Origin: Escherichia coli
GTDB taxonomy: Bacteria; Pseudomonadota; Gammaproteobacteria; Enterobacterales; Enterobacteriaceae
DNA: 64,000 bases
Reading direction: 5' to 3' (one strand)
Assembly: GCF_030384885.1 (NCBI RefSeq)
Contig: NZ_CP128613.1
The notes under the pieces were generated by a model that was not told the origin of the DNA, did no database searches, and saw only the letters and a list, made by a program, of their open reading frames with translations. The position numbers and the translations under genes are program-made. Shown piece after piece: positions 1,992 to 36,196 of this stretch; the first letter of the stretch is position 1; each line of letters begins with the position of its first letter.

Positions 1992-4900
1992 TTATTTCAT
2001 CGCCTCCTCGCCCGTTGCCGTATTGGCATCCACCGCGGTAATGGTCACCGTCACTGGCTTCATTTCGTACCCGCCATAGGTCAGGGCGTTAAATGTGAAC
2101 GTATAGACACCAGGCTTGCTGGTACTAAATGTACGCGTGATTTTTCCGCTCACGAAATGGTCATTTTTCGACGGCAGGAACTGATAATCCTTCTCCGTCA
2201 CCCCTTCCGGCGTCTGAATGTCGACCCACATATTCCCGCCAACGGGGTTATTTGCCGACATCAGGGTCACCTCCAGCTTCGCAGTCGATTTCCCATCCGC
2301 CACCAGAGATTGCACATCAGATGATGCGGCGAGCACCGCGTTTTTATCATCCGCCACGAAACTGGATTCAGCCGTTTTCGTTGATACCTGACCGTTGTCC
2401 TGACTCACTTGCGCCGTAAGTGTATATTTCGCTGCAACAGTCGTGGTGGCGGTGAAAATAGCCTGCCCTTGCTCATTCGTTGTCGCTGTGCCATTCGGTT
2501 CCAGGTTTAACGAAGCCGGGCTGGCGGTCAGCGTCACTTCGCTATCTTTCAACAAATTGTTATTGGCATCAGTCACCGTAACTTTATACGTCTGTTTGGC
2601 TTTGCCATCCGCCACTGCACGGTTGCCAATCACCTCAATACTGGAGATGGTCGCCGTAGTCTTATCCGCCACAAACGTAATGCTCTTCGCGTCTGAAGGC
2701 TGGTTATTTCCTGCTGAAGCCGTGATCTCATACGTTCCGGCAGTCACTGAAACCACCTGCAACTCTGCTTTCCCCTCATCGTTGGCTTTCACCCAGACAT
2801 TATCGCCAGTAAGCGGTTTGACACCCCGGGGCAGATTAAATGTCACCAGAGTTCCTGGAACAGGGTTACCGTTTTTATCCTCAACGGTCGCCGTCAGCGT
2901 AAAGGCATCTTTGCCGTTTGCCACTTTTTGAGCGGCAGTGTCAACCTGCAGGTTTGCCTGACCGGTGCTGGCGTCTGCGTTGAATTTCACCGTGACCGTC
3001 TTCTGAGCATTATTCACTGAGGCCGTGATACTGTGTTCCCCAGCAACGGTTGCTATCAACTCAATGTCCGCTTTACCTGCCGCATTGGTTGTTACTGTAT
3101 TCCCCGTCTTGCTAGTCACACCCTGCGGTAAAGTCAGCGTAACTTCTTGCCCCTGCAACGGGTTACCATAGCTGTCCACGACGGTCAGGGTTACCTGGTT
3201 AGCAGACTGTCCATTTGCCAGTTGGTTATTCACCTTCACCGCCATATCACTGATCACTGCCCGGGAAGCGTCGCCTGCAACATTCAGCACCAATGGCTGA
3301 GCAACGGCATTTTGGCCGTTCACGCGTGGCATGACAGACAACTGACCTGCAGCCGATCCCAGCGTTAAGGTCGACACGTAGACCCCATTACCTTTCTCTG
3401 TCCAGTTTCCTGCTGAAGGACGCTCACTCCCCGTGCTGGCGGCACCGCTAAACACTGGTGCATCTGGCTTCAGCCCGGTGACCGGGTTCCCGTACGCATC
3501 CTTCACGGTGAAGGTGAGTTCCGTCGTCGTTTTAACCGTTGGAGTCTTATTGTCCGCAACAAGCGTAGAGTTCGCTGATGACATCTCCCCGGCGATGACC
3601 GTCAACTGCGCGGCTTCGGTGGCTGCTGGCTGGCCGTTGAAGAGCGGCATGACACGAAGCTCGCCCGTCTTTCCGCCTGTGGTCAACGTAGCAACATAGG
3701 AACCGTCACCTTTTTCGGTCCAACTGGAAATAGTCGCCCCTTCAGAGGCGGTCCCCGTCAAACTTGCCGACAACGAAAGACCACTGATAGCGTTGCCATG
3801 CGCATCTTTCGCCACCAGCGTCACGGTTGTGCTTTCGCCTGCTTTTACGCGATCTGCGGCTACAGACACTGTCGACTGGCCTGAAGATAACGCATCAGCC
3901 ACCACGGTTACTTTTGCCGCGTTTGCTGCCGCGTCCTGCCCATTGAGCTTCGGCATAACCTCTAATTCACCCGCCGTAGAGCCGAGAGTAATTTGCGCAG
4001 TCCACGTCCCATCACCATTATTTGTCCAGCCCGATGCCGTAGAACCTACAGCAGCGGCACCCGCTAATGACGGCGCTTCCGGCGTGAGGCTGGTCACAGG
4101 GTTGTCATAGGCATCTTTTGCCGTCCAGATTGCCGTAACTGTACCGCCAACCACCGGTTTATCAGGATTCAGTGTGATGGACGAATGTGCTGCATCAAGC
4201 GGCCCGGCAACAAACTTCAGCGTTTGTTGTAACGTGCCCAGCTGATACTGCTCGCTGAAGGCACGCACAACAACGTTTCCGGCACGGGTCGAAGAAACCG
4301 TGGCGCTGTAAACCCCTGGTTTTATTTCCGAAATGGCACCAACGGTTACACCATTAGTGTCTTGCGGAACAAGTCGCAGGCGGCTGGCTTCTCCCGTCAC
4401 CGGATTACCCTCGGAGTCCACCGCTGTCAGTGTCAGCGTGTAGGCTTGCTGACCATCAGCAACCACATCACCTGACGGCTCGTTAGCGCTCAGGGTGGAG
4501 TTTGCCACATCCATCATCGTGGCCCGCAGTTCTGCAGTGACAGTTTTGCTCATGTCATCAACGCTAACAGTAATCGTTACCTCACCTGACTGCGTTCCGG
4601 TAGTAAAGACAGACTGATACACCCCTGCTTCAGTTTCGGTGAACTCACCCAGTGTGGGTTTTGCCTGTGATTTAGTGGCCTTCAGGGTACGAGTCACAAT
4701 ATTTCCAGCCGGTTTGAAGGTTAGTTCAGTCTTGATCTGATCTTTCATGCCCGTGACTGGCTGGCCCTCGGCGTCGCGCAGAGACAGCACCAGCGGCTTT
4801 TGCTCATTACCGTTAGCAAGCATTTGAATACTGCTCTGACCGTCAAGCGTTAACGCCGTACGATCGGCGCTCATACCAGCTCCGCTAATAACCACTTCTG

Positions 4901-21654: not shown

Positions 21655-22269
21655 TTATCTGTTTGAGCCTAAAGGGATCTCAGGGTCTGGCTCATGAGTA
21701 ATTCTGTTTCGTAAATCTCTGCGAATAATTTCAATGGACCAGAACCAGACTAAATGTCCAAAAATTTCAGAAACATTCTCATACCACGGGAGATCAAACA
21801 GAGGTGGCGTCAGTCCCATGAGAGGGAATGAAATCATATGAACAAAAAGTTGGGCTAAAGCACCTGCCAGTAAGCCCTGCCAGAGTTTAATTTTTGGAAA
21901 TACTTCAGCGACCACACAATAACCGACAGCAAACACTATCGAAAAGATAATGTGCGTAACACCAACCCAGTTAAAGACATGCCCGGCAAAGGTATAAACA
22001 GCCGCATTGGGATCTGTCAGCCCCAGCCAGTCTCGAAGAAAAATATACGGAGGATTGAGAAAATTACGGGAGCAATCAATTTGCCCAGCAGCCCTGATTA
22101 ATGATTCCGGGCCACACGCTGCATTAAACATATCCACCGGGCTACGTGGCGGCAATGGAACTTCAGCCCCCCACTTCACAAATGCGGAAACAACGCCAGC
22201 AATTAGCCCAATGAATGCAGCAAGACCATAACGTCTGCGGTTCGGTGGAGTTTGTTCAAATATATTCAT
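21655..22269 (-). CDS. yagU: inner-membrane protein, DUF1440 family
   Basis: 204-aa ORF, multiple hydrophobic segments; matches recollection of YagU. Confidence 0.85.
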
Positions 22270-22475
22270 ATTTACCCTGTTTGTTTCATTATGTTGTACA
22301 CCTCTTCAGGAGTATTCATAAAACAAGATAAATGTAAAGAACTGTATTGTTTTGTATAATGCAATGGTGACTAATCGCCAATTAATATAAGCACCATCAT
22401 TTCTCCATATTTTTATGTTAGAAGTGACAAGGAGAAATGTAATGTTTCTCTCAGAGAATATAAATCATTCCTTTT

Positions 22476-22500
22476 GCCCACCTTAATGGTGGGCTTTTTT
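22476..22500 (+). terminator. rho-independent terminator of a short transcript
   Basis: GCCCACC-TTAA-TGGTGGGC hairpin followed by TTTTTT; extended -10 TGTATAAT at 22353-22360 about 120 nt upstream. Confidence 0.5.
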
Positions 22501-22730
22501 ATGCAAAACCTGAACACCCTGTGGTATTCCCCTGGCATTATCACTTTCGCGATTAACCAACAGCCAGACCAGCAAACACGCCACTACAGGCACAGCAAAA
22601 TCCATCAGGCTTGCCACACCCCATGCGTGCGGCTCAAAGCCGCCCCGCCATGGCATATTAATCCGCTTACCATTTTCGAACAGCTGATTGGTTTAGTCCG
22701 GTGTTTCCCTGCTTGCACTTAAAAATGAGC

Positions 22731-22820
22731 GGATGGGAAACTCTCGAAATGGTTCGTCGATATGCTCACCTTTCAGTCAGGCATTTCACCGCGCACGCGA
22801 GCAAAATCAAAGGCACATGA
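22731..22820 (+). pseudogene. 3' remnant of a second P4-type integrase gene
   Basis: Encodes ..[14 protein letters not shown].. then stop, matching the C-terminus ([14 protein letters not shown]) of the intact integrase at 34943-36106; lies directly beside the left att copy. Confidence 0.6.
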
Positions 22821-22851
22821 GGAGAATGTGGTTGACTTAAAAACGAGGAAA

Positions 22852-22913
22852 CTTATTGATTTAAATGGTGCCGATAATAGGAGTCGAACCTACGACCTTC
22901 GCATTACGAATTA
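22852..22913. repeat. left 62-bp direct repeat (att copy; duplicates 3' part of tRNA-Thr plus 16 bp)
   Basis: Identical to 36105-36166 by direct comparison. Confidence 0.8.
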
Positions 22914-23282
22914 TAAGAATCCGTTTCTAATTCAAAGCATTACCACATCAACACTGCGCTCACACGTCCCACCACATCAAAACATGTAAAGCCTTGCAAG
23001 CCATTGTGAGGCCTTATGTGTCTCAGTTTTGTCCCACCTTGTATTACGACTTGCATAACCAATGAAGATAAACGTGACGACAAACGACGCAGCAGTCTTC
23101 TTTTCTTTCACACTTTCCCCACTCAGCATGCATACCTTCTACTATAACTGTAGTGAATGTCTGTTATGAGCGAGGAGCGGACTATCTTTCTGTGCTAAGC
23201 ACAGAAGTTTAAATTAATAAATAGAGATTAAGATGTTTATTGGTTACATTGATATTTATAATTTGATTGCCTTGAAATTCCT

Positions 23283-23351: not shown

Positions 23352-24695
23352 TCATTTCTTTGCCGCGCTTTTATTGCACTTCTTACAGCCTTCAATCAAT
23401 TTTTCAGTTATTATATAATAATAAGGAATGTAAATGTTTAACCCGCAAGTTTTAATCGAATCGAAAGCAAGAACTTTCACAATGGATTCTTCTCCATCTT
23501 TCTCCATTAGCAATATATCACTTAAAGGCAAATCATTAGGATTGTAAATCCTCACATCGCCAGGCTGTCTTTCATAGGCTTCGATGTCATCACCTGGTTG
23601 GCCATAGGCTAAATGAGTGGCTTTAATCCAGTTTATTGGTTCAGCATTTTGACACCAGGAGATTATTTTTTCTAATTTTTCAGGTGTGTAAGCTTTTACA
23701 TAATCTCCATGTTTTTCACATCTACCTAGTTCTGAAAAATGGCCCAGGGTGTATTCATAAGAATAATCACCAGCAGTCAATGGTAGTCTAAAGTATTGCT
23801 GAGGCAATGCCTTCTGGACTTTGGTTTTACTCAGCAAATTAAAGGTGATATCATAAAGTTGATATAGACAAACACCCTCTCGATCTGGATATCCATAAGG
23901 CTTGATGTCAGAAAGCATCTCAATATCAGAATTATAAACACTTGCATAATCATCACTTCCAAACATGAAAAAACCTTTTGATAGAATGAATATTGCATTA
24001 GGAAGAACGTTTTTTTCAAAATTCTGCGAGTGAGTTTTTATTTCTTGTACTATGTCCATCCAATCCATATCAGTATCATAGGCGAAGATAATTCCAAAAC
24101 CATTAGTCTGAATTCTCTCCTCTGAATGTATAAATATGTTCTGATTTATACCATGTTTCTTTAGTTTTTTGAATGAGCGGATATTTTCGAAAGCACTTTT
24201 CAGTTCTTTTTTTGTTAGTTTTGACTTAACCTGAATCACACCATAGCAGTACTCCACAGGTAAAACCTCAAAAATTTCCTGTCGCTGCATAAGCGAAAAT
24301 GAATTAAAAGCATCATAAAAAAGAATGTCGATTTCATTACTGAGATGTCCTGAGGTTGACGCTACACGGACACTTGATTTTGAGATGGCATAGCTTTGCG
24401 GTAAGAGTTTATTTTCATTGAAAAAGCATCTTAAGAGTTCCTCTCTGACAGTACCAACATCTCTTGGATGCTTAATATCTTTCGATATTTCAAAATCTTG
24501 AAGCATTTTCCTCTGTAAGTGAATGAACTCCCTTTCAAGACCATAAAATTCTTTATCTTTAGATCTCAGTTTGCTTGCACGAGAAACTTGATCGGATATC
24601 CATTCCTTTGTGCGAGACTCTCTCTCAGCAAAATCATCACGTTGTTTTTTTACAGCACCGGTCAAGCGTTTTCTTGTGTTTTCATTATCGGACAT
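23352..24695 (-). CDS. hypothetical protein, low GC; possible PD-(D/E)xK / Mrr-like nuclease fold
   Basis: 447-aa ORF; motif ..SNEIDILFYD..(about 25 aa)..YGVIQVKSKL reminiscent of a D...(E/Q)xK nuclease core; AT-rich relative to neighbours; no confident family assignment. Confidence 0.55.
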   Translation of the reverse strand: MSDNENTRKRLTGAVKKQRDDFAERESRTKEWISDQVSRASKLRSKDKEFYGLEREFIHLQRKMLQDFEISKDIKHPRDVGTVREELLRCFFNENKLLPQSYAISKSSVRVASTSGHLSNEIDILFYDAFNSFSLMQRQEIFEVLPVEYCYGVIQVKSKLTKKELKSAFENIRSFKKLKKHGINQNIFIHSEERIQTNGFGIIFAYDTDMDWMDIVQEIKTHSQNFEKNVLPNAIFILSKGFFMFGSDDYASVYNSDIEMLSDIKPYGYPDREGVCLYQLYDITFNLLSKTKVQKALPQQYFRLPLTAGDYSYEYTLGHFSELGRCEKHGDYVKAYTPEKLEKIISWCQNAEPINWIKATHLAYGQPGDDIEAYERQPGDVRIYNPNDLPLSDILLMEKDGEESIVKVLAFDSIKTCGLNIYIPYYYIITEKLIEGCKKCNKSAAKK

Positions 24696-25214: not shown

Positions 25215-25814
25215 TCATTTATCTCCGACCGGAAACTTCTTATACAGTGTCGATACACCAACATCATAGATGATCTCCACCTTCTGGCGAGGAACGCCTG
25301 ATGCAATTAATCGCCCGGCCTGCGCCCTTTGTTCTGGTGTAAGTTTGGGACGACGTCCACCAATTCGTCCCTGTGCGCGAGCAACTTCCAGTCCAGCTTT
25401 TGTTCGTTCAACAATCAGTTCTCGTTCCATTTCAGCCAGGGCACCCATCACATGAAAGAAAAAACGCCCCATCGGTGTGCTGGTATCAATAGCATCCGTC
25501 AGGCTGCGAAAATTAACGCCACGTTCGCGCAACTCCTCAACCAGAATGACCAGATGGACAAGCGTGCCGGGACCGGGTTTATTCAGCGCTTCAATCAGGC
25601 GATCGCGCTGGTCAAAGCAGTCATCTCCCACCACATAAGCTGTGATGGACGGGCGGAAAGTGACTTTTCCCAGATCTTCGGTATAGGGCTTGTCGCGGTT
25701 CGGGTATTCATGTGTTTCCACACGGCGACCGGTTCCCGCACTTTCTTCTTCAACCTTAAACGGCACACCTCGAAATGACGCATCCTGAAGCCTGTCTTTC
25801 CACGTCATATACAC
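25215..25814 (-). pseudogene. chimeric ORF: C-terminal half of a Pin/Gin/Hin-family serine DNA invertase fused to a Mu-N-like (DNA circularisation protein) N-terminus
   Basis: C-terminal about 110 aa (VEELRERG..FRSLTD.IDTSTPMGRFFFHVMGALAEMERELIVERT..GGRRPKLT..) matches invertase C-terminus and HTH; catalytic Ser-containing N-terminus missing; first about 85 aa (WKDRLQDASFRGVPF..GRRVETHEYPNRD..EDLG) resembles phage DNA_circ_N proteins. Confidence 0.6.
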
Positions 25815-25869
25815 TCCGAAAATAAAAAAGCCACCTATTAGAAGGTGGCCTTGTAATGAATTTTATTAA

Positions 25870-26400
25870 TTAGCGAGTCAGAAACAACGAATCTTTATAC
25901 TTTTGCTGTTGTTCATTTAAATACTTAGCTGTTTCATCGCTGGCAAATGGAAATATTACCGTATTTTTAGGCATGGTAATTTCTTTTTTGTCCAGCGTCA
26001 GAGTAAACATAGGAACATACTGAGCAGAGTAACGCACCGCAGAAACGAGCTCTAGTTTAGACTCTTCAATAACACTTAAATTATCCAGGCTAACTTTCTC
26101 TTCATCTTTTTTCTTTGACGCATTTAAAGTTTTTATTACTTTATTTAATTTCTCCTGAAAATCCTCCTTAAAGTTTTCAGGATTGCCGTCGACAACAAGA
26201 ATCTGTTCACCCTGATTATCTGGAAAAATAATCTTTGCACTTATCAATTTATTTTCTTTATAAACATCACCAAGTTTTATGGCTCCTCCAGATAACTGAA
26301 TAATATGTTCATCTTTAAAGGAGATGTTGCCAGAGATTATGAGAGATGAAAAAATAGCCGCTGCTCCAAGAATTACACTTGCTGTGATATAGCCTTTCAT
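25870..26400 (-). CDS. hypothetical membrane-anchored/secreted protein, low GC
   Basis: 176-aa ORF with N-terminal hydrophobic segment MKGYITASVILGAAAIFSSLIISG; Lys/Glu-rich; AT-rich. Confidence 0.5.
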   Translation of the reverse strand: MKGYITASVILGAAAIFSSLIISGNISFKDEHIIQLSGGAIKLGDVYKENKLISAKIIFPDNQGEQILVVDGNPENFKEDFQEKLNKVIKTLNASKKKDEEKVSLDNLSVIEESKLELVSAVRYSAQYVPMFTLTLDKKEITMPKNTVIFPFASDETAKYLNEQQQKYKDSLFLTR

Positions 26401-26491
26401 TTTTCGCCTATTAACATTTTTCTAAATGTGCATTAATTCTATCACTCTATTTATGACTTACAACCAGCAATACATGTGAGGGGAATCCTGG

Positions 26492-27623
26492 CTACCAAAA
26501 TCGGGTATAGCCAACATCGTGATTTATATCAATGCCACTGGAGCGTGTTTCCGTAACCCGCATACCTGGTGGCATATTTATAAATGATACCTTGATCTCA
26601 CCATCAACTTTTGGCGCGGTAGCTTTATTAATCATGAAGGGATTCGGGCCTGTGGCATCGGAGGCGTTGTTTGCCTGAGCCGGATCCACCGCCGGATAAG
26701 GAGTGTATCCCCGTGCCGGTATTCCCGTCTTCGATATTGTTGAAGGTGGCGCGATCGGTGTTCTGCACCATGTGCAACGGCACCCGGAACAGACGACAGA
26801 TTTCTTCAAGCTGAAACTTGCGGGTTTCCAGGAACTGGCTGTCCTCGGCGTTCAGCGCCATCGACTTCCAGTCCAGCCCCATCTCAAGGATCATCGGGCG
26901 GTGAGCATTACCAAGCCCGGTGTGACGCTCCTCAAAATCTTTCTTCAGGCGCTCATAAGCCTGATCCGACAGCGTCTGTTCTGTACGCAACACACCCGAC
27001 GTCACCGCGCCATTGCTGAACAGTCTGGCCCCGTGCTCTTCGGTCGCAGCTGCCAGCGATATTGCCTCACGGGCATAGGCGATGGGATTCAGTCCCACCA
27101 GACCGTCCAGCGTCAGCGTGCGCACATGCCAGATATCCTCCTGGCTCAGTACATCCGTGGAGCCATCCGGGAATGTGACCTGATAGACCGGCTCCCAGCT
27201 ACTGTTAAGCTTCGGTACCACACAGCCGGGATCGACGGGCAGCAGTTCAGCCACTTCGCCAAATGCTTTCACTTTGTAGGCGTAAAAGTTTCCCCGCAGG
27301 CACAGACAGGTGACCACCAGCTCCCAGAACTCCTGCGGCGTCATATAGCCATTGGGATGCGTGGAGATCAGCTTATGCAGACGTTCGCCAGTGGCTCTCT
27401 GCTTCAGGCTGCCGTTCAGGTGATACAGGTTGCAGGGCAACATCCCGACCGACTCCGCCAGCACCCTGACACAGGAAAAAACCGCCGTCAGTCGCATGGC
27501 CCGCTGGCTGCTGATCTGCTTTCCGGTATAGGTGTCGTAGGACAACCCGATGGCATCCGCCAGCTCTGCTGGCGTGGTCACCGGTGCGTCACTTTTTCGT
27601 TGAAATAATCCCGAAAAGAACAC
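26492..27623 (-). pseudogene. phage portal protein (HK97-family), frameshifted and 3'-truncated
   Basis: 331-aa ORF with portal-like N-terminus continues in another frame as a 105-aa ORF (26492-26809); normally followed by protease/capsid genes, which are absent. Confidence 0.6.
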
Positions 27624-36106: not shown

Positions 36107-36166
36107 CTTATTGATTTAAATGGTGCCGATAATAGGAGTCGAACCTACGACCTTCGCATTACGAAT
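36105..36166. repeat. right 62-bp direct repeat (att copy overlapping tRNA-Thr 3' end)
   Basis: Identical to 22852-22913. Confidence 0.8.
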
Positions 36167-36196
36167 GCGCTGCTCTACCAACTGAGCTATATCGGC
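36121..36196 (-). tRNA. thrW: tRNA-Thr (anticodon CGU)
   Basis: Reverse complement reads GCCGATATAGCTCAGTTGGTAGAGCAGCGCATTCGTAATGCGAAGGTCGTAGGTTCGACTCCTATTATCGGCACCA; cloverleaf-compatible, CCA end. Confidence 0.9.

What the first reader, a model, noticed from the sequence alone, without database searches (positions are those of the whole stretch)
25870..26400. Second low-GC cargo gene: membrane-anchored 176-aa protein, possible superinfection-exclusion factor
N-terminal hydrophobic anchor followed by a Lys/Glu-rich soluble domain, AT-rich, located beside the pin fragment in place of head/tail genes. Small membrane-anchored prophage proteins in this position often block DNA injection by incoming phages. 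No recognisable family.
Basis: inference. Interest (0 to 1): 0.4.

Follow-up and report, generated by a model that had tools for sequence, protein, structure and literature searches.

The report
Prophage moron encoding membrane-anchored periplasmic protein
This is a real, conserved add-on gene ("moron") of an e14/SfV-like prophage that makes a small inner-membrane-anchored protein facing the periplasm; it probably helps the lysogen keep other phages out, but that function is unproven and the gene is otherwise an ordinary example of its kind.

Summary
The ORF is real: 25870-26400, minus strand, 176 aa, GC 0.34 against 0.55-0.58 in its flanks. It is identical to E. coli WP_000679479.1 and under purifying selection (dN/dS about 0.07-0.25).

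It did not replace the head and tail genes. It sits in its native slot between the tape-measure gene and the Mu gp43-like "DNA circularization" hub gene of an e14/SfV-like myovirus prophage. Two deletions (portal to tape measure; hub gene to pin) removed the structural genes on either side and left a 1.2-kb block.

In related E. coli prophages this slot is empty or holds one of at least five other AT-rich cassettes, each ending in its own terminator. One alternative is a membrane-anchored OB-fold protein that PHROGs annotates as "superinfection exclusion Sie-like".

The protein has no Pfam, NCBIfam or PADLOC match. It belongs to PHROG 5485 (unknown function) and a family of about 79 clusters. 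The model (pLDDT 89) shows an N-terminal TM helix and an alpha/beta domain with no solved structural neighbour. A remote lipoprotein homologue and the positive-inside rule place that domain in the periplasm.

Divergent homologues recur next to tape-measure genes. Superinfection exclusion is the best guess (about 0.4), supported only by circumstantial evidence.

The parts
25870..26400 (-). Coding sequence of the 176-aa protein, identical to WP_000679479.1 and a member of PHROG 5485.
   Evidence: ORF list. 100% DNA identity to annotated hypothetical-protein genes in 170-plus E. coli genomes. PHROG 5485 match at E 3.8e-108. Purifying selection.
26332..26394 (-). Codons for the N-terminal transmembrane anchor, residues about 3-23.
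   Evidence: Kyte-Doolittle maximum 2.1. AlphaFold helix 3-23. The N-terminal flank is more positive than the C-terminal flank in 64 of 72 family members, which indicates N-in/C-out topology.
25888..26307 (-). Codons for the folded alpha/beta domain, residues about 32-171, predicted to be periplasmic.
26436..26463 (-). Sigma-70 promoter-like site (TTGTAA, 16-nt spacer, TG-n-TAGAAT) inside the cassette, upstream of the gene.
   Evidence: Consensus scan, 9 of 12 matches with an extended -10 TG. Comparable or better sites lie upstream of some homologues, for example 11 of 12 in L096. This is a consensus match only, not shown to be functional.
25819..25852 (-). Rho-independent terminator of the cassette: a 10-bp GC-rich hairpin followed by a T-run. 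It lies just upstream of the ribosome-binding site of the hub gene.
   Evidence: Terminator scan. All seven tail-module-resident homologues examined, and the same-strand alternative cassettes at this slot, end in their own hairpin and T-run.
26492..26729 (-). Remnant of the tape-measure gene (last ~79 codons). It is fused upstream, by deletion, to the portal gene remnant.
   Evidence: Intact prophages align to window 25555-26729 only; portal genes align from 26728 onward. Annotation of the intact prophage in E. coli S51.
25555..25808 (-). Remnant of the Mu gp43-like hub gene (first ~85 codons, DNA_circ_N domain). It is fused in frame, by deletion, to the 3' part of pin.
   Evidence: Pfam DNA_circ_N on residues 9-87, followed by Resolvase and HTH_7. 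Alignment break at window ~25555.
25215..25554 (-). C-terminal part of the pin invertase gene. It forms the 3' part of the chimeric ORF and marks the downstream deletion junction.
   Evidence: Pfam Resolvase profile positions 79-144 plus HTH_7. pinE matches to window 25480-25556.
26730..27623 (-). N-terminal part of the portal gene, marking the upstream deletion junction.
   Evidence: Pfam Phage_portal, profile positions 2-251 of 321. Portal matches start at window 26728.

Best explanation
**What it is.** The gene is a phage moron. It is an autonomous, AT-rich cassette of about 680 bp containing a promoter-like site, one gene and its own terminator. It lies between the tape-measure gene and the Mu gp43-like hub ("DNA circularization") gene of an e14/SfV-like contractile-tailed prophage.

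**Its product.** The protein is a bitopic inner-membrane protein. It has a short cytoplasmic N-terminus, one transmembrane helix (residues ~3-23) and a mildly acidic alpha/beta domain of about 145 residues in the periplasm.

**Most likely function (inferred).** It is expressed from the repressed, and here defective, prophage. It acts as an entry-level exclusion factor. Its periplasmic domain would interfere with the step at which the tail tip, tape-measure or hub proteins of an incoming phage cross the periplasm and open the inner membrane for DNA delivery. This is how the unrelated HK97 gp15 moron behaves.

**What is shown and what is not.**
- Shown: gene reality, moron architecture, dispensability for virion formation, family membership, purifying selection.
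- Predicted: membrane anchoring and periplasmic orientation.
- Inferred only: expression in lysogens, and any exclusion activity or target.
For: **Moron architecture**
- Related E. coli prophages have the tape-measure and hub genes directly adjacent, separated by a 60-bp spacer with a hairpin. Others carry one of six different inserts at exactly this point.
- GC is 0.34 against 0.55 or more in the flanks. Homologues are also AT-rich relative to their loci: 0.34-0.40 against 0.45-0.55.
- The cassette has its own terminator, as do all seven tail-module-resident homologues examined.
- A promoter-like site with an extended -10 lies upstream.

**Real and functional**
- 79 family clusters, all about 175 aa.
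- dN/dS of 0.07-0.26.
- The gene has stayed in the same slot down to 30% identity. It evolves faster than the sheath, tube and baseplate genes and about as fast as the tape measure.

**Topology**
- TM helix 3-23.
- The N-terminal flank is the more positive in 64 of 72 members, and the soluble domain is net acidic.
- The only structural neighbour is a remote homologue in Pseudomonas phage ventosus. It is a lipoprotein with a canonical lipobox (LLTGC) in place of the TM helix, so its domain is extracytoplasmic.

**Functional hints**
- Of the five other cargo types at the slot, one has a TM anchor, one a signal peptide and one a lipobox. One of the five, the TM-anchored OB-fold protein, matches PHROG 8545, annotated "superinfection exclusion Sie-like", at E 2.8e-49.
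- The distant homologue P0085 lies 30 bp upstream of another PHROG 8545 member.
- Homologues sit directly after a tape-measure gene (e14/SfV-like modules and L111), directly before one (L026/L027), one gene away from one (L010), or among baseplate genes (L110).
- HK97 gp15 is also a tail-operon moron beside the tape-measure gene. It inserts into the inner membrane and blocks DNA entry in a tail-dependent way (PMC3594210).
- The gene survives intact in at least three differently deleted prophage remnants: this window, CFSAN061772 and SCU-118.
Against: - **The "Sie-like" label is untested.** It is a database annotation of unknown experimental basis on a neighbouring family.
- **Guilt by association is weak.** Moron slots carry genes of many functions. 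One alternative cargo (bPH_1, no TM helix) is not obviously an envelope protein.
- **Adjacency to tape-measure genes may not be functional.** It may simply reflect where tail operons tolerate insertions. Three of about eight independent contexts are not in tail modules (L011, L112, L113).
- **Retention in remnants is anecdotal.** About 173 of 178 E. coli carriers have at least 1 kb of intact flank on each side of the gene, and one genome has a 5'-truncated copy.
- **Promoter evidence is at chance level.** The scan found 2 sites where 3.0 are expected.
- **No cultured phage carries the gene.** None in the GenBank phage collection has it, so no phenotype data exist.
Confidence: 0.4

Rival explanations
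1. It is a lysogenic-conversion envelope factor that benefits the host in a way unrelated to phage entry. Examples would be protection against serum, colicins, tailocins or envelope stress, or altered surface properties, in the manner of the lambda Bor/Iss lipoproteins or Lom.
For: - The moron architecture and periplasm-facing anchor are the same as under the best explanation.
- Morons are known to carry such functions (PMC3594210).
- Other cargo types at the slot include a secreted protein and a lipoprotein of unknown function.
- The SCU-118 remnant also keeps iss nearby.
Against: - No similarity to Bor/Iss, Lom, immunity proteins or any Pfam family.
- The recurrent placement beside tape-measure genes and the link to a Sie-like family point to a phage-related role.
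Confidence: 0.25
2. It is a membrane-anchored abortive-infection or sensor-type defence protein. It would act after DNA entry, for example by collapsing membrane integrity when it detects an infecting phage, as membrane-anchored Abi proteins such as PdpSau or AbiP do.
For: - It is a single-gene, prophage-encoded, membrane-anchored cargo.
- Membrane-anchored prophage defence proteins of this kind are documented (PMC10127798).
- It is adjacent to other defence-like cargo in this window: a DUF6602/PD-(D/E)xK protein with a NucC-like match.
Against: - The predicted topology puts the folded domain in the periplasm, not the cytoplasm where Abi sensors meet phage products.
- The domain is acidic, unlike the positively charged nucleic-acid-binding C-termini of PdpSau and AbiP.
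- PADLOC gives no hit.
Confidence: 0.15
3. It serves the phage's own lytic cycle. It could be an accessory to tail or baseplate assembly, DNA ejection or lysis (spanin- or antiholin-like), transcribed with the late tail operon.
For: - It has the same orientation as the tail operon and sits inside it.
- It has been retained at the same slot down to 30% identity and co-diverges with the module.
- A type II membrane anchor is also a feature of i-spanins.
Against: - About 900 of roughly 1,100 E. coli genomes with this tail module lack the gene. Their slot is empty or holds unrelated cargo, so it is dispensable for virion production.
- It is followed by its own terminator and has deviant composition.
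- The fold is a globular alpha/beta domain, not a coiled coil. There is no partner o-spanin, and the lysis cassette lies elsewhere.
- The gene remains intact in remnants that can no longer make virions.
Confidence: 0.08
4. It is a decaying or spurious ORF with no current function, which survived by chance between two deletions.
For: - It lies in a heavily deleted prophage remnant.
- It has no annotated function.
- One genome carries a truncated copy.
Against: - The reading frame is intact and identical to the copy in intact prophages.
- The family has 79 clusters of conserved length and architecture.
- dN/dS is 0.07-0.26.
- The structure prediction is confident.
Confidence: 0.02

Closest known systems
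HK97 gp15 moron (YebO-like superinfection-exclusion protein; Cumby et al. 2012, summarised in PMC3594210)
   Same: - Both are single-gene morons with deviant composition and their own terminator.
- Both are inserted in the tail operon directly beside the tape-measure gene.
- Both products are small proteins with an N-terminal membrane anchor.
- gp15 is proven to be expressed from the prophage and to block DNA entry in a tail-dependent manner. That is the model proposed here.
   Different: - There is no sequence similarity (BLASTP E 17).
- gp15 is 62 aa with essentially no folded extramembrane domain. This protein is 176 aa with an alpha/beta periplasmic domain of about 145 residues.
- gp15 lies upstream of the tape-measure gene in a siphovirus. 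This gene lies downstream of it in a Mu-type contractile-tail module.
- No phenotype is known for this protein.
PHROG 8545, annotated "superinfection exclusion Sie-like" (TM-anchored tRNA_anti-like OB-fold proteins, Pfam PF12869)
   Same: - It occupies the very same slot between the tape-measure and hub genes in other E. coli prophages, as an alternative cassette.
- It has an N-terminal TM anchor, is AT-rich and is of similar size.
- A member lies immediately downstream of a distant homologue of this protein in L011.
   Different: - It has a different fold (OB-fold against an alpha/beta sandwich) and no sequence relationship.
- In E. coli it is encoded on the opposite strand.
- I could not trace the experimental basis of the Sie-like label.
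Lipoprotein CNR37_00111 (UniProt A0A2H4P829) of the lytic Pseudomonas phage ventosus
   Same: - It is the only significant structural neighbour (Foldseek E 1.8e-6, TM-score 0.56/0.67).
- It shares the motif that follows the membrane anchor (TIIHTRSAVVNVGEVTAE against the family consensus NIIxTTNGxVxLGxVYxE). The family profile matches it weakly: 11.9 bits, E 2.3e-5 against only three candidate sequences.
- It is a phage-encoded protein anchored in the envelope.
   Different: - It is anchored by a lipid (lipobox LLTGC) rather than by a TM helix.
- It is 144 aa.
- It is encoded among early or middle genes of a 97-kb virulent phage, not in a tail operon.
- Its function is unknown.
Classical entry-exclusion proteins: P22 SieA, T4 Imm and Sp, T5 Llp and the Cor lipoproteins
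   Same: They are phage-encoded proteins of the inner membrane, periplasm or outer membrane that stop superinfecting phages at the receptor or DNA-entry step. This is the functional class proposed here.
   Different: - No similarity is detectable through PHROGs, Pfam or PADLOC.
- Their architectures differ: SieA and Imm are polytopic, Sp is a soluble helical protein, and Llp and Cor are small lipoproteins.
- I did not compare the sequences individually.

Membership tests
Phage moron (Juhala/Hendrix definition) | It is inserted between two genes that are adjacent in related phage genomes. | tested here: met
   In CE10, O157:H7, UTI89 and many other genomes the tape-measure and DNA_circ genes are separated by only 60 bp. 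Roughly 16% of about 1,100 genomes with this module carry the 176-aa gene.
Phage moron (Juhala/Hendrix definition) | Its base composition deviates from that of the neighbouring phage genes. | tested here: met
   GC is 0.34 against 0.55-0.59 in the flanks. Homologues are also AT-rich relative to their loci.
Phage moron (Juhala/Hendrix definition) | It has its own terminator. | tested here: met
   A 10-bp hairpin and T-run lie at 25852-25819. All seven tail-module homologues examined and the same-strand alternative cassettes have one.
Phage moron (Juhala/Hendrix definition) | It has its own promoter and is expressed from the repressed prophage. | tested here: inconclusive
   Only a consensus match was found: 9 of 12 positions with an extended -10 in the window, and 11 of 12 in L096. 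The scan count does not exceed that of shuffled sequence. Expression cannot be tested with these tools.
PHROG 5485 (phage protein family of unknown function) | A full-length profile match. | tested here: met
   E 3.8e-108, residues 1-176 against profile positions 1-176. The 30%-identical homologue P0044 also matches, at E 1.4e-27.
HK97 gp15 / YebO family | Sequence homology to gp15 or YebO. | tested here: not met
   BLASTP gives E 17. Pfam and NCBIfam give no hit.
Superinfection-exclusion proteins (functional class) | It blocks infection or DNA entry by superinfecting phage when expressed in the host. | not testable with these tools
   This requires plaquing, adsorption and DNA-entry assays.
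Superinfection-exclusion proteins (functional class) | It is located in the cell envelope. | tested here: inconclusive
   Localisation is predicted only. The evidence is the TM helix, the positive-inside bias in 64 of 72 members and a remote lipoprotein homologue.
Known anti-phage defence systems (PADLOC-DB v2) | A profile match to any catalogued defence protein. | tested here: not met
   No families matched at E up to 1.
i-spanin (Rz-type) | A type II N-terminal TM anchor. | tested here: inconclusive
   The anchor and N-in/C-out orientation are predicted, not demonstrated.
i-spanin (Rz-type) | A periplasmic coiled-coil domain, a partner o-spanin lipoprotein gene, and a location in the lysis cassette. 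| tested here: not met
   The fold is a globular alpha/beta domain. The neighbours are tail genes, and the lysis genes are annotated elsewhere in related prophages.
Virion structural or morphogenetic protein of Mu-type tails | It is present in all functional members of the tail module, or is homologous to a known tail or baseplate protein. | tested here: not met
   Most prophages with the same module lack it. It has no Pfam or PHROG tail annotation.

The most novel reading that the evidence does not exclude
The PHROG 5485 family would be a previously unrecognised and widespread class of entry-exclusion protein specific to contractile-tailed temperate phages. Its periplasmic alpha/beta domain, which has no solved structural relative, would recognise the ejected tape-measure or hub proteins of incoming phages. 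The family would be kept beside, and would co-evolve with, the tape-measure gene so that the carrier phage's own specificity is matched. The slot between the tape-measure and hub genes would then be a dedicated hotspot for interchangeable entry-blocking cassettes facing the envelope.
Probability: 0.2. Interest if true: 0.6.

Novelty: new member of a known kind. Interest (0 to 1): 0.35.

Why it matters
**If the exclusion hypothesis holds:**
- It would add a structurally new family to the short list of proteins known to block phage genome delivery at the inner membrane. That step is still poorly understood, especially for Mu-type contractile tails.
- It would define the junction between the tape-measure and hub genes of e14/SfV-like prophages as a cargo hotspot that can be mined for envelope-level defences.
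- About 3% of complete E. coli genomes carry the gene, so it could affect susceptibility to therapeutic or temperate phages.

**If it does not hold:** this is simply one more well-delimited moron of unknown function, which is a common finding.

Tried and rejected
**Searches that found nothing**
- Pfam, NCBIfam and PADLOC scans of the protein found no family.
- tblastn against 50,697 GenBank phage genomes gave no match, so no cultured carrier phage is known.
- A profile search against PDB sequences gave only chance matches; the best, E 0.044, covers only the TM helix and the ~30 residues after it.
- The afdb50 Foldseek library was unavailable.
- BLASTP against HK97 gp15 showed no similarity.
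- The literature holds nothing on WP_000679479 and nothing useful on tRNA_anti-like phage proteins. The HK97 gp15 primary paper is not held.

**Ideas tested and downgraded or rejected**
- Selective retention in decayed prophages was tested by counting genomes with intact 1-kb flanks. About 173 of 178 carriers have intact flanks, so retention in remnants rests on only 3-4 cases.
- Insertions of equal length with no DNA match in some genomes turned out to be unrelated 164-aa and 225-aa cargo, not a divergent allele of this gene.
- A spanin, structural or assembly role was rejected (see the rival explanations).
- A cleavable signal peptide was considered. An AXA motif at residues 13-15 lies in mid-helix and is not conserved in homologues, so a stable anchor is more likely. 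Neither SignalP nor TMHMM was available.

**Scans that could not run**
- The search for related loci with the broad alignments A2 and A3 failed because they have no conserved stretch to search with.

Full report
**Observation**

The reported ORF exists as described. It runs from ATG at 26400 to TAA at 25870 on the minus strand and encodes 176 aa. No competing ORF lies on the other strand. Its GC content is 0.343. The neighbouring phage genes are at 0.55-0.59 and the whole window at 0.50.

Residues about 5-23 are strongly hydrophobic. The rest of the protein is rich in Lys and Glu (21 K, 14 E) and close to neutral overall. Next to the gene is a chimeric ORF at 25215-25814. It joins the N-terminal DNA_circ_N domain of a Mu gp43-like protein to the C-terminal half of a Pin-type resolvase.

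**Where the gene really sits**

The DNA is 100% identical to a gene annotated as hypothetical protein WP_000679479.1, and 178 of 5,426 complete E. coli genomes carry the gene.

In an intact prophage (E. coli S51) the gene lies inside the late operon of an e14/SfV-like myovirus that has HK97-type head genes and a Mu-type contractile tail. Its position is between the tape-measure gene and the "DNA circularization protein" gene, the Mu gp43-like hub.

In the window, intact prophages align only to 25555-26729. Beyond 26728 the sequence continues as a portal gene, and below 25556 as pinE. Two deletions therefore removed the structural genes:
- One of about 8 kb, from the portal gene to the tape-measure gene.
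- One of about 6 kb, from the hub gene to pin.

They left a 1.2-kb block centred on this gene. It is at its native place.

No complete E. coli RefSeq genome has exactly this arrangement. Differently deleted remnants that keep the gene intact exist in CFSAN061772 and in SCU-118/CPE35.

**It is a moron in a variable cargo slot**

About 1,100 E. coli genomes carry this tail module. Most have the tape-measure and hub genes separated by only 60 bp, which contain a hairpin terminator. About 173 carry the 176-aa gene.

Other genomes carry a different insert at the same point:
- a 125-aa bPH_1 protein;
- a 148-aa TM-anchored tRNA_anti-like OB-fold protein, on the opposite strand;
- a 164-aa protein with a signal peptide;
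- a 225-aa lipoprotein;
- a 5'-truncated copy of the present gene.

Every cassette begins at the last codons of the tape-measure gene. All are AT-rich (GC 0.31-0.42). The same-strand ones end with their own GC-rich hairpin and T-run, just before the conserved ribosome-binding site of the hub gene.

In the window the terminator lies at 25852-25819. A promoter-like site (TTGTAA, 16-nt spacer, TG-n-TAGAAT) lies at 26463-26436. The terminator recurs downstream of all seven divergent tail-module homologues examined. Promoter-like sites vary in quality, from 6 to 11 of 12 matches.

The gene is therefore dispensable for virion formation and has the classical moron anatomy described for HK97 (PMC3594210).

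**The protein family**

Pfam, NCBIfam and PADLOC give nothing. PHROG 5485 (unknown function) matches end to end at E 3.8e-108.

A word-indexed search found only enterobacterial relatives, in Leclercia and Lelliottia, at 52-58% identity. An exhaustive profile search found 79 clusters, nearly all about 175 aa with the same architecture. The most conserved columns, at least 90% identical across the 43-sequence alignment, are:
- a G-x(3)-L-G-x(2)-Y-x-E motif just after the anchor (G39, L43, G44, Y47, E49);
- Y124, P130 and L134 in the C-terminal sheet.

The gene is under purifying selection. dN/dS is 0.07-0.2 in informative pairs and about 0.26 among E. coli alleles.

Homologues at 53% identity (Leclercia and Lelliottia prophages) and at 30% identity (L009) occupy the same slot. 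Their identity to the E. coli copy is lower than that of most tail genes:

| Protein | S51 vs L002 | S51 vs L006 | S51 vs L009 |
|---|---|---|---|
| This protein | 53% | 53% | 30% |
| Sheath | 75% | 75% | 62% |
| Tube | 86% | 78% | 81% |
| GpP baseplate protein | 81% | 82% | 51% |
| DNA_circ hub protein | 68% | 72% | 45% |
| Tape measure | 36% | 76% | 22% |

The gene is thus a long-term resident that evolves fast, about as fast as the tape measure.

**Structure and topology**

With a 43-sequence alignment AlphaFold gives a confident model (pLDDT 88.8). It has a TM helix at residues 3-23 and a short linker. An alpha/beta domain follows, with strands at 32-72 and 114-143 and helices at 74-93 and 149-171.

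A lipid-anchored homologue implies that the domain lies outside the cytoplasm. The positive-inside rule agrees: the N-terminal flank is the more positive in 64 of 72 members, and the soluble domain is net acidic, averaging -4.4. I therefore predict a type II (N-in, C-out) inner-membrane protein with a periplasmic domain. This is a prediction, not a demonstration.

**Hints to function**

Three independent lines of circumstantial evidence point towards phage entry.

1. **An alternative occupant of the slot is annotated as an exclusion protein.** The OB-fold alternative matches PHROG 8545, "superinfection exclusion Sie-like" (E 2.8e-49), and PHROG 15667, "superinfection exclusion". Of the five other cargo types, one has a TM anchor, one a signal peptide and one a lipobox; the bPH_1 protein and the truncated copy have none.
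2. **A distant homologue neighbours the same family.** P0085 in L011 lies 30 bp upstream of another PHROG 8545 member, with no terminator between them.
3. **Divergent homologues recur next to tape-measure genes in unrelated tail modules.**
   - Directly downstream of one in L111.
   - Directly upstream of one in L026/L027.
   - One gene away in L010.
   - Between the baseplate hub and a baseplate assembly gene in L110.
   - Three other contexts are not in tail modules: L011, L112 near a DNA polymerase gene, and L113 near a repressor-like regulator and a methyltransferase.

The best-studied parallel is HK97 gp15. It is a moron beside the tape-measure gene whose small inner-membrane product blocks DNA entry in a tail-dependent way (PMC3594210). 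Recent work also shows membrane-bound defence proteins acting on tape-measure proteins during injection (PMC13190303), and prophage morons that target tape-measure proteins (PMC10884400).

None of these proteins is related to the present one. BLASTP against gp15 gives E 17.

**Verdict**

It remains circumstantial. The rivals are:
- another lysogenic-conversion role in the envelope (about 0.25);
- an abortive-infection type of membrane defence (about 0.15);
- a role in the phage's own lytic cycle (about 0.08; disfavoured because most related prophages lack the gene);
- no function (about 0.02; contradicted by conservation).

As a kind of thing it is familiar: a new member of the class of moron-encoded envelope proteins. 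What is new is a fold with no solved relative and a well-defined cargo hotspot. Interest is moderate to low.

Noticed in passing
window 23352-24695 (-): A second AT-rich cargo gene (GC about 0.34) encodes a 447-aa protein. It has a DUF6602 domain (Pfam E 4.6e-23) and PADLOC matches to a PD-DExK model (E 2e-27) and to NucC-like effector nucleases (E 1e-16 to 1e-17). In other E. coli genomes it lies next to an intact pinE. In strain S51 the same position beyond pinE holds a LEM-3-like GIY-YIG protein instead. The region beyond pin therefore looks like a second variable slot for nuclease-type defence candidates.
   Followed up: partly
window 25215-25814 (-): An in-frame chimeric ORF joins the first ~85 codons of the DNA_circ_N hub gene to the C-terminal catalytic half and HTH of Pin invertase. 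The deletion junction is at about 25555, and 2-4 bases are shared by both parents. The real start is probably ATG 25808, not the GTG at 25814.
   Followed up: partly
window 26492-27623 (-): A deletion junction at about 26728/26729 joins the portal N-terminal part to the last ~79 codons of the tape-measure gene. CFSAN061772 and SCU-118 have analogous portal/tape-measure deletions with different breakpoints, so related prophages have decayed independently.
   Followed up: partly
window 22300-23182: This stretch matches E. coli genes annotated as integrase at about 95.6% identity, yet the window has only short fragmented ORFs here. It is probably an integrase pseudogene at the prophage end next to yagU (21655-22269).
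   Followed up: no
L013-L016 and L108-L109 (E. coli prophages), same slot as window 25815-26491: Five other cargo types occupy the junction between the tape-measure and hub genes. They include a 164-aa secreted protein (PHROG 8976), a 225-aa lipoprotein (PHROG 1353) and a bPH_1 protein (PHROG 7115), all of unknown function. The junction is a small hotspot worth a systematic survey.
   Followed up: partly
L021 (E. coli CFSAN061772), locus 2216-4892: In this remnant the truncated hub gene directly abuts a type II restriction endonuclease and a cytosine methyltransferase at the ssrA site. The retained moron therefore sits in a small defence island.
   Followed up: no
window 36121-36196 (-): A tRNA-Thr (CGT) gene is the only tRNA found between 20 and 45 kb. 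It may be the attachment site at the other end of the prophage region.
   Followed up: no
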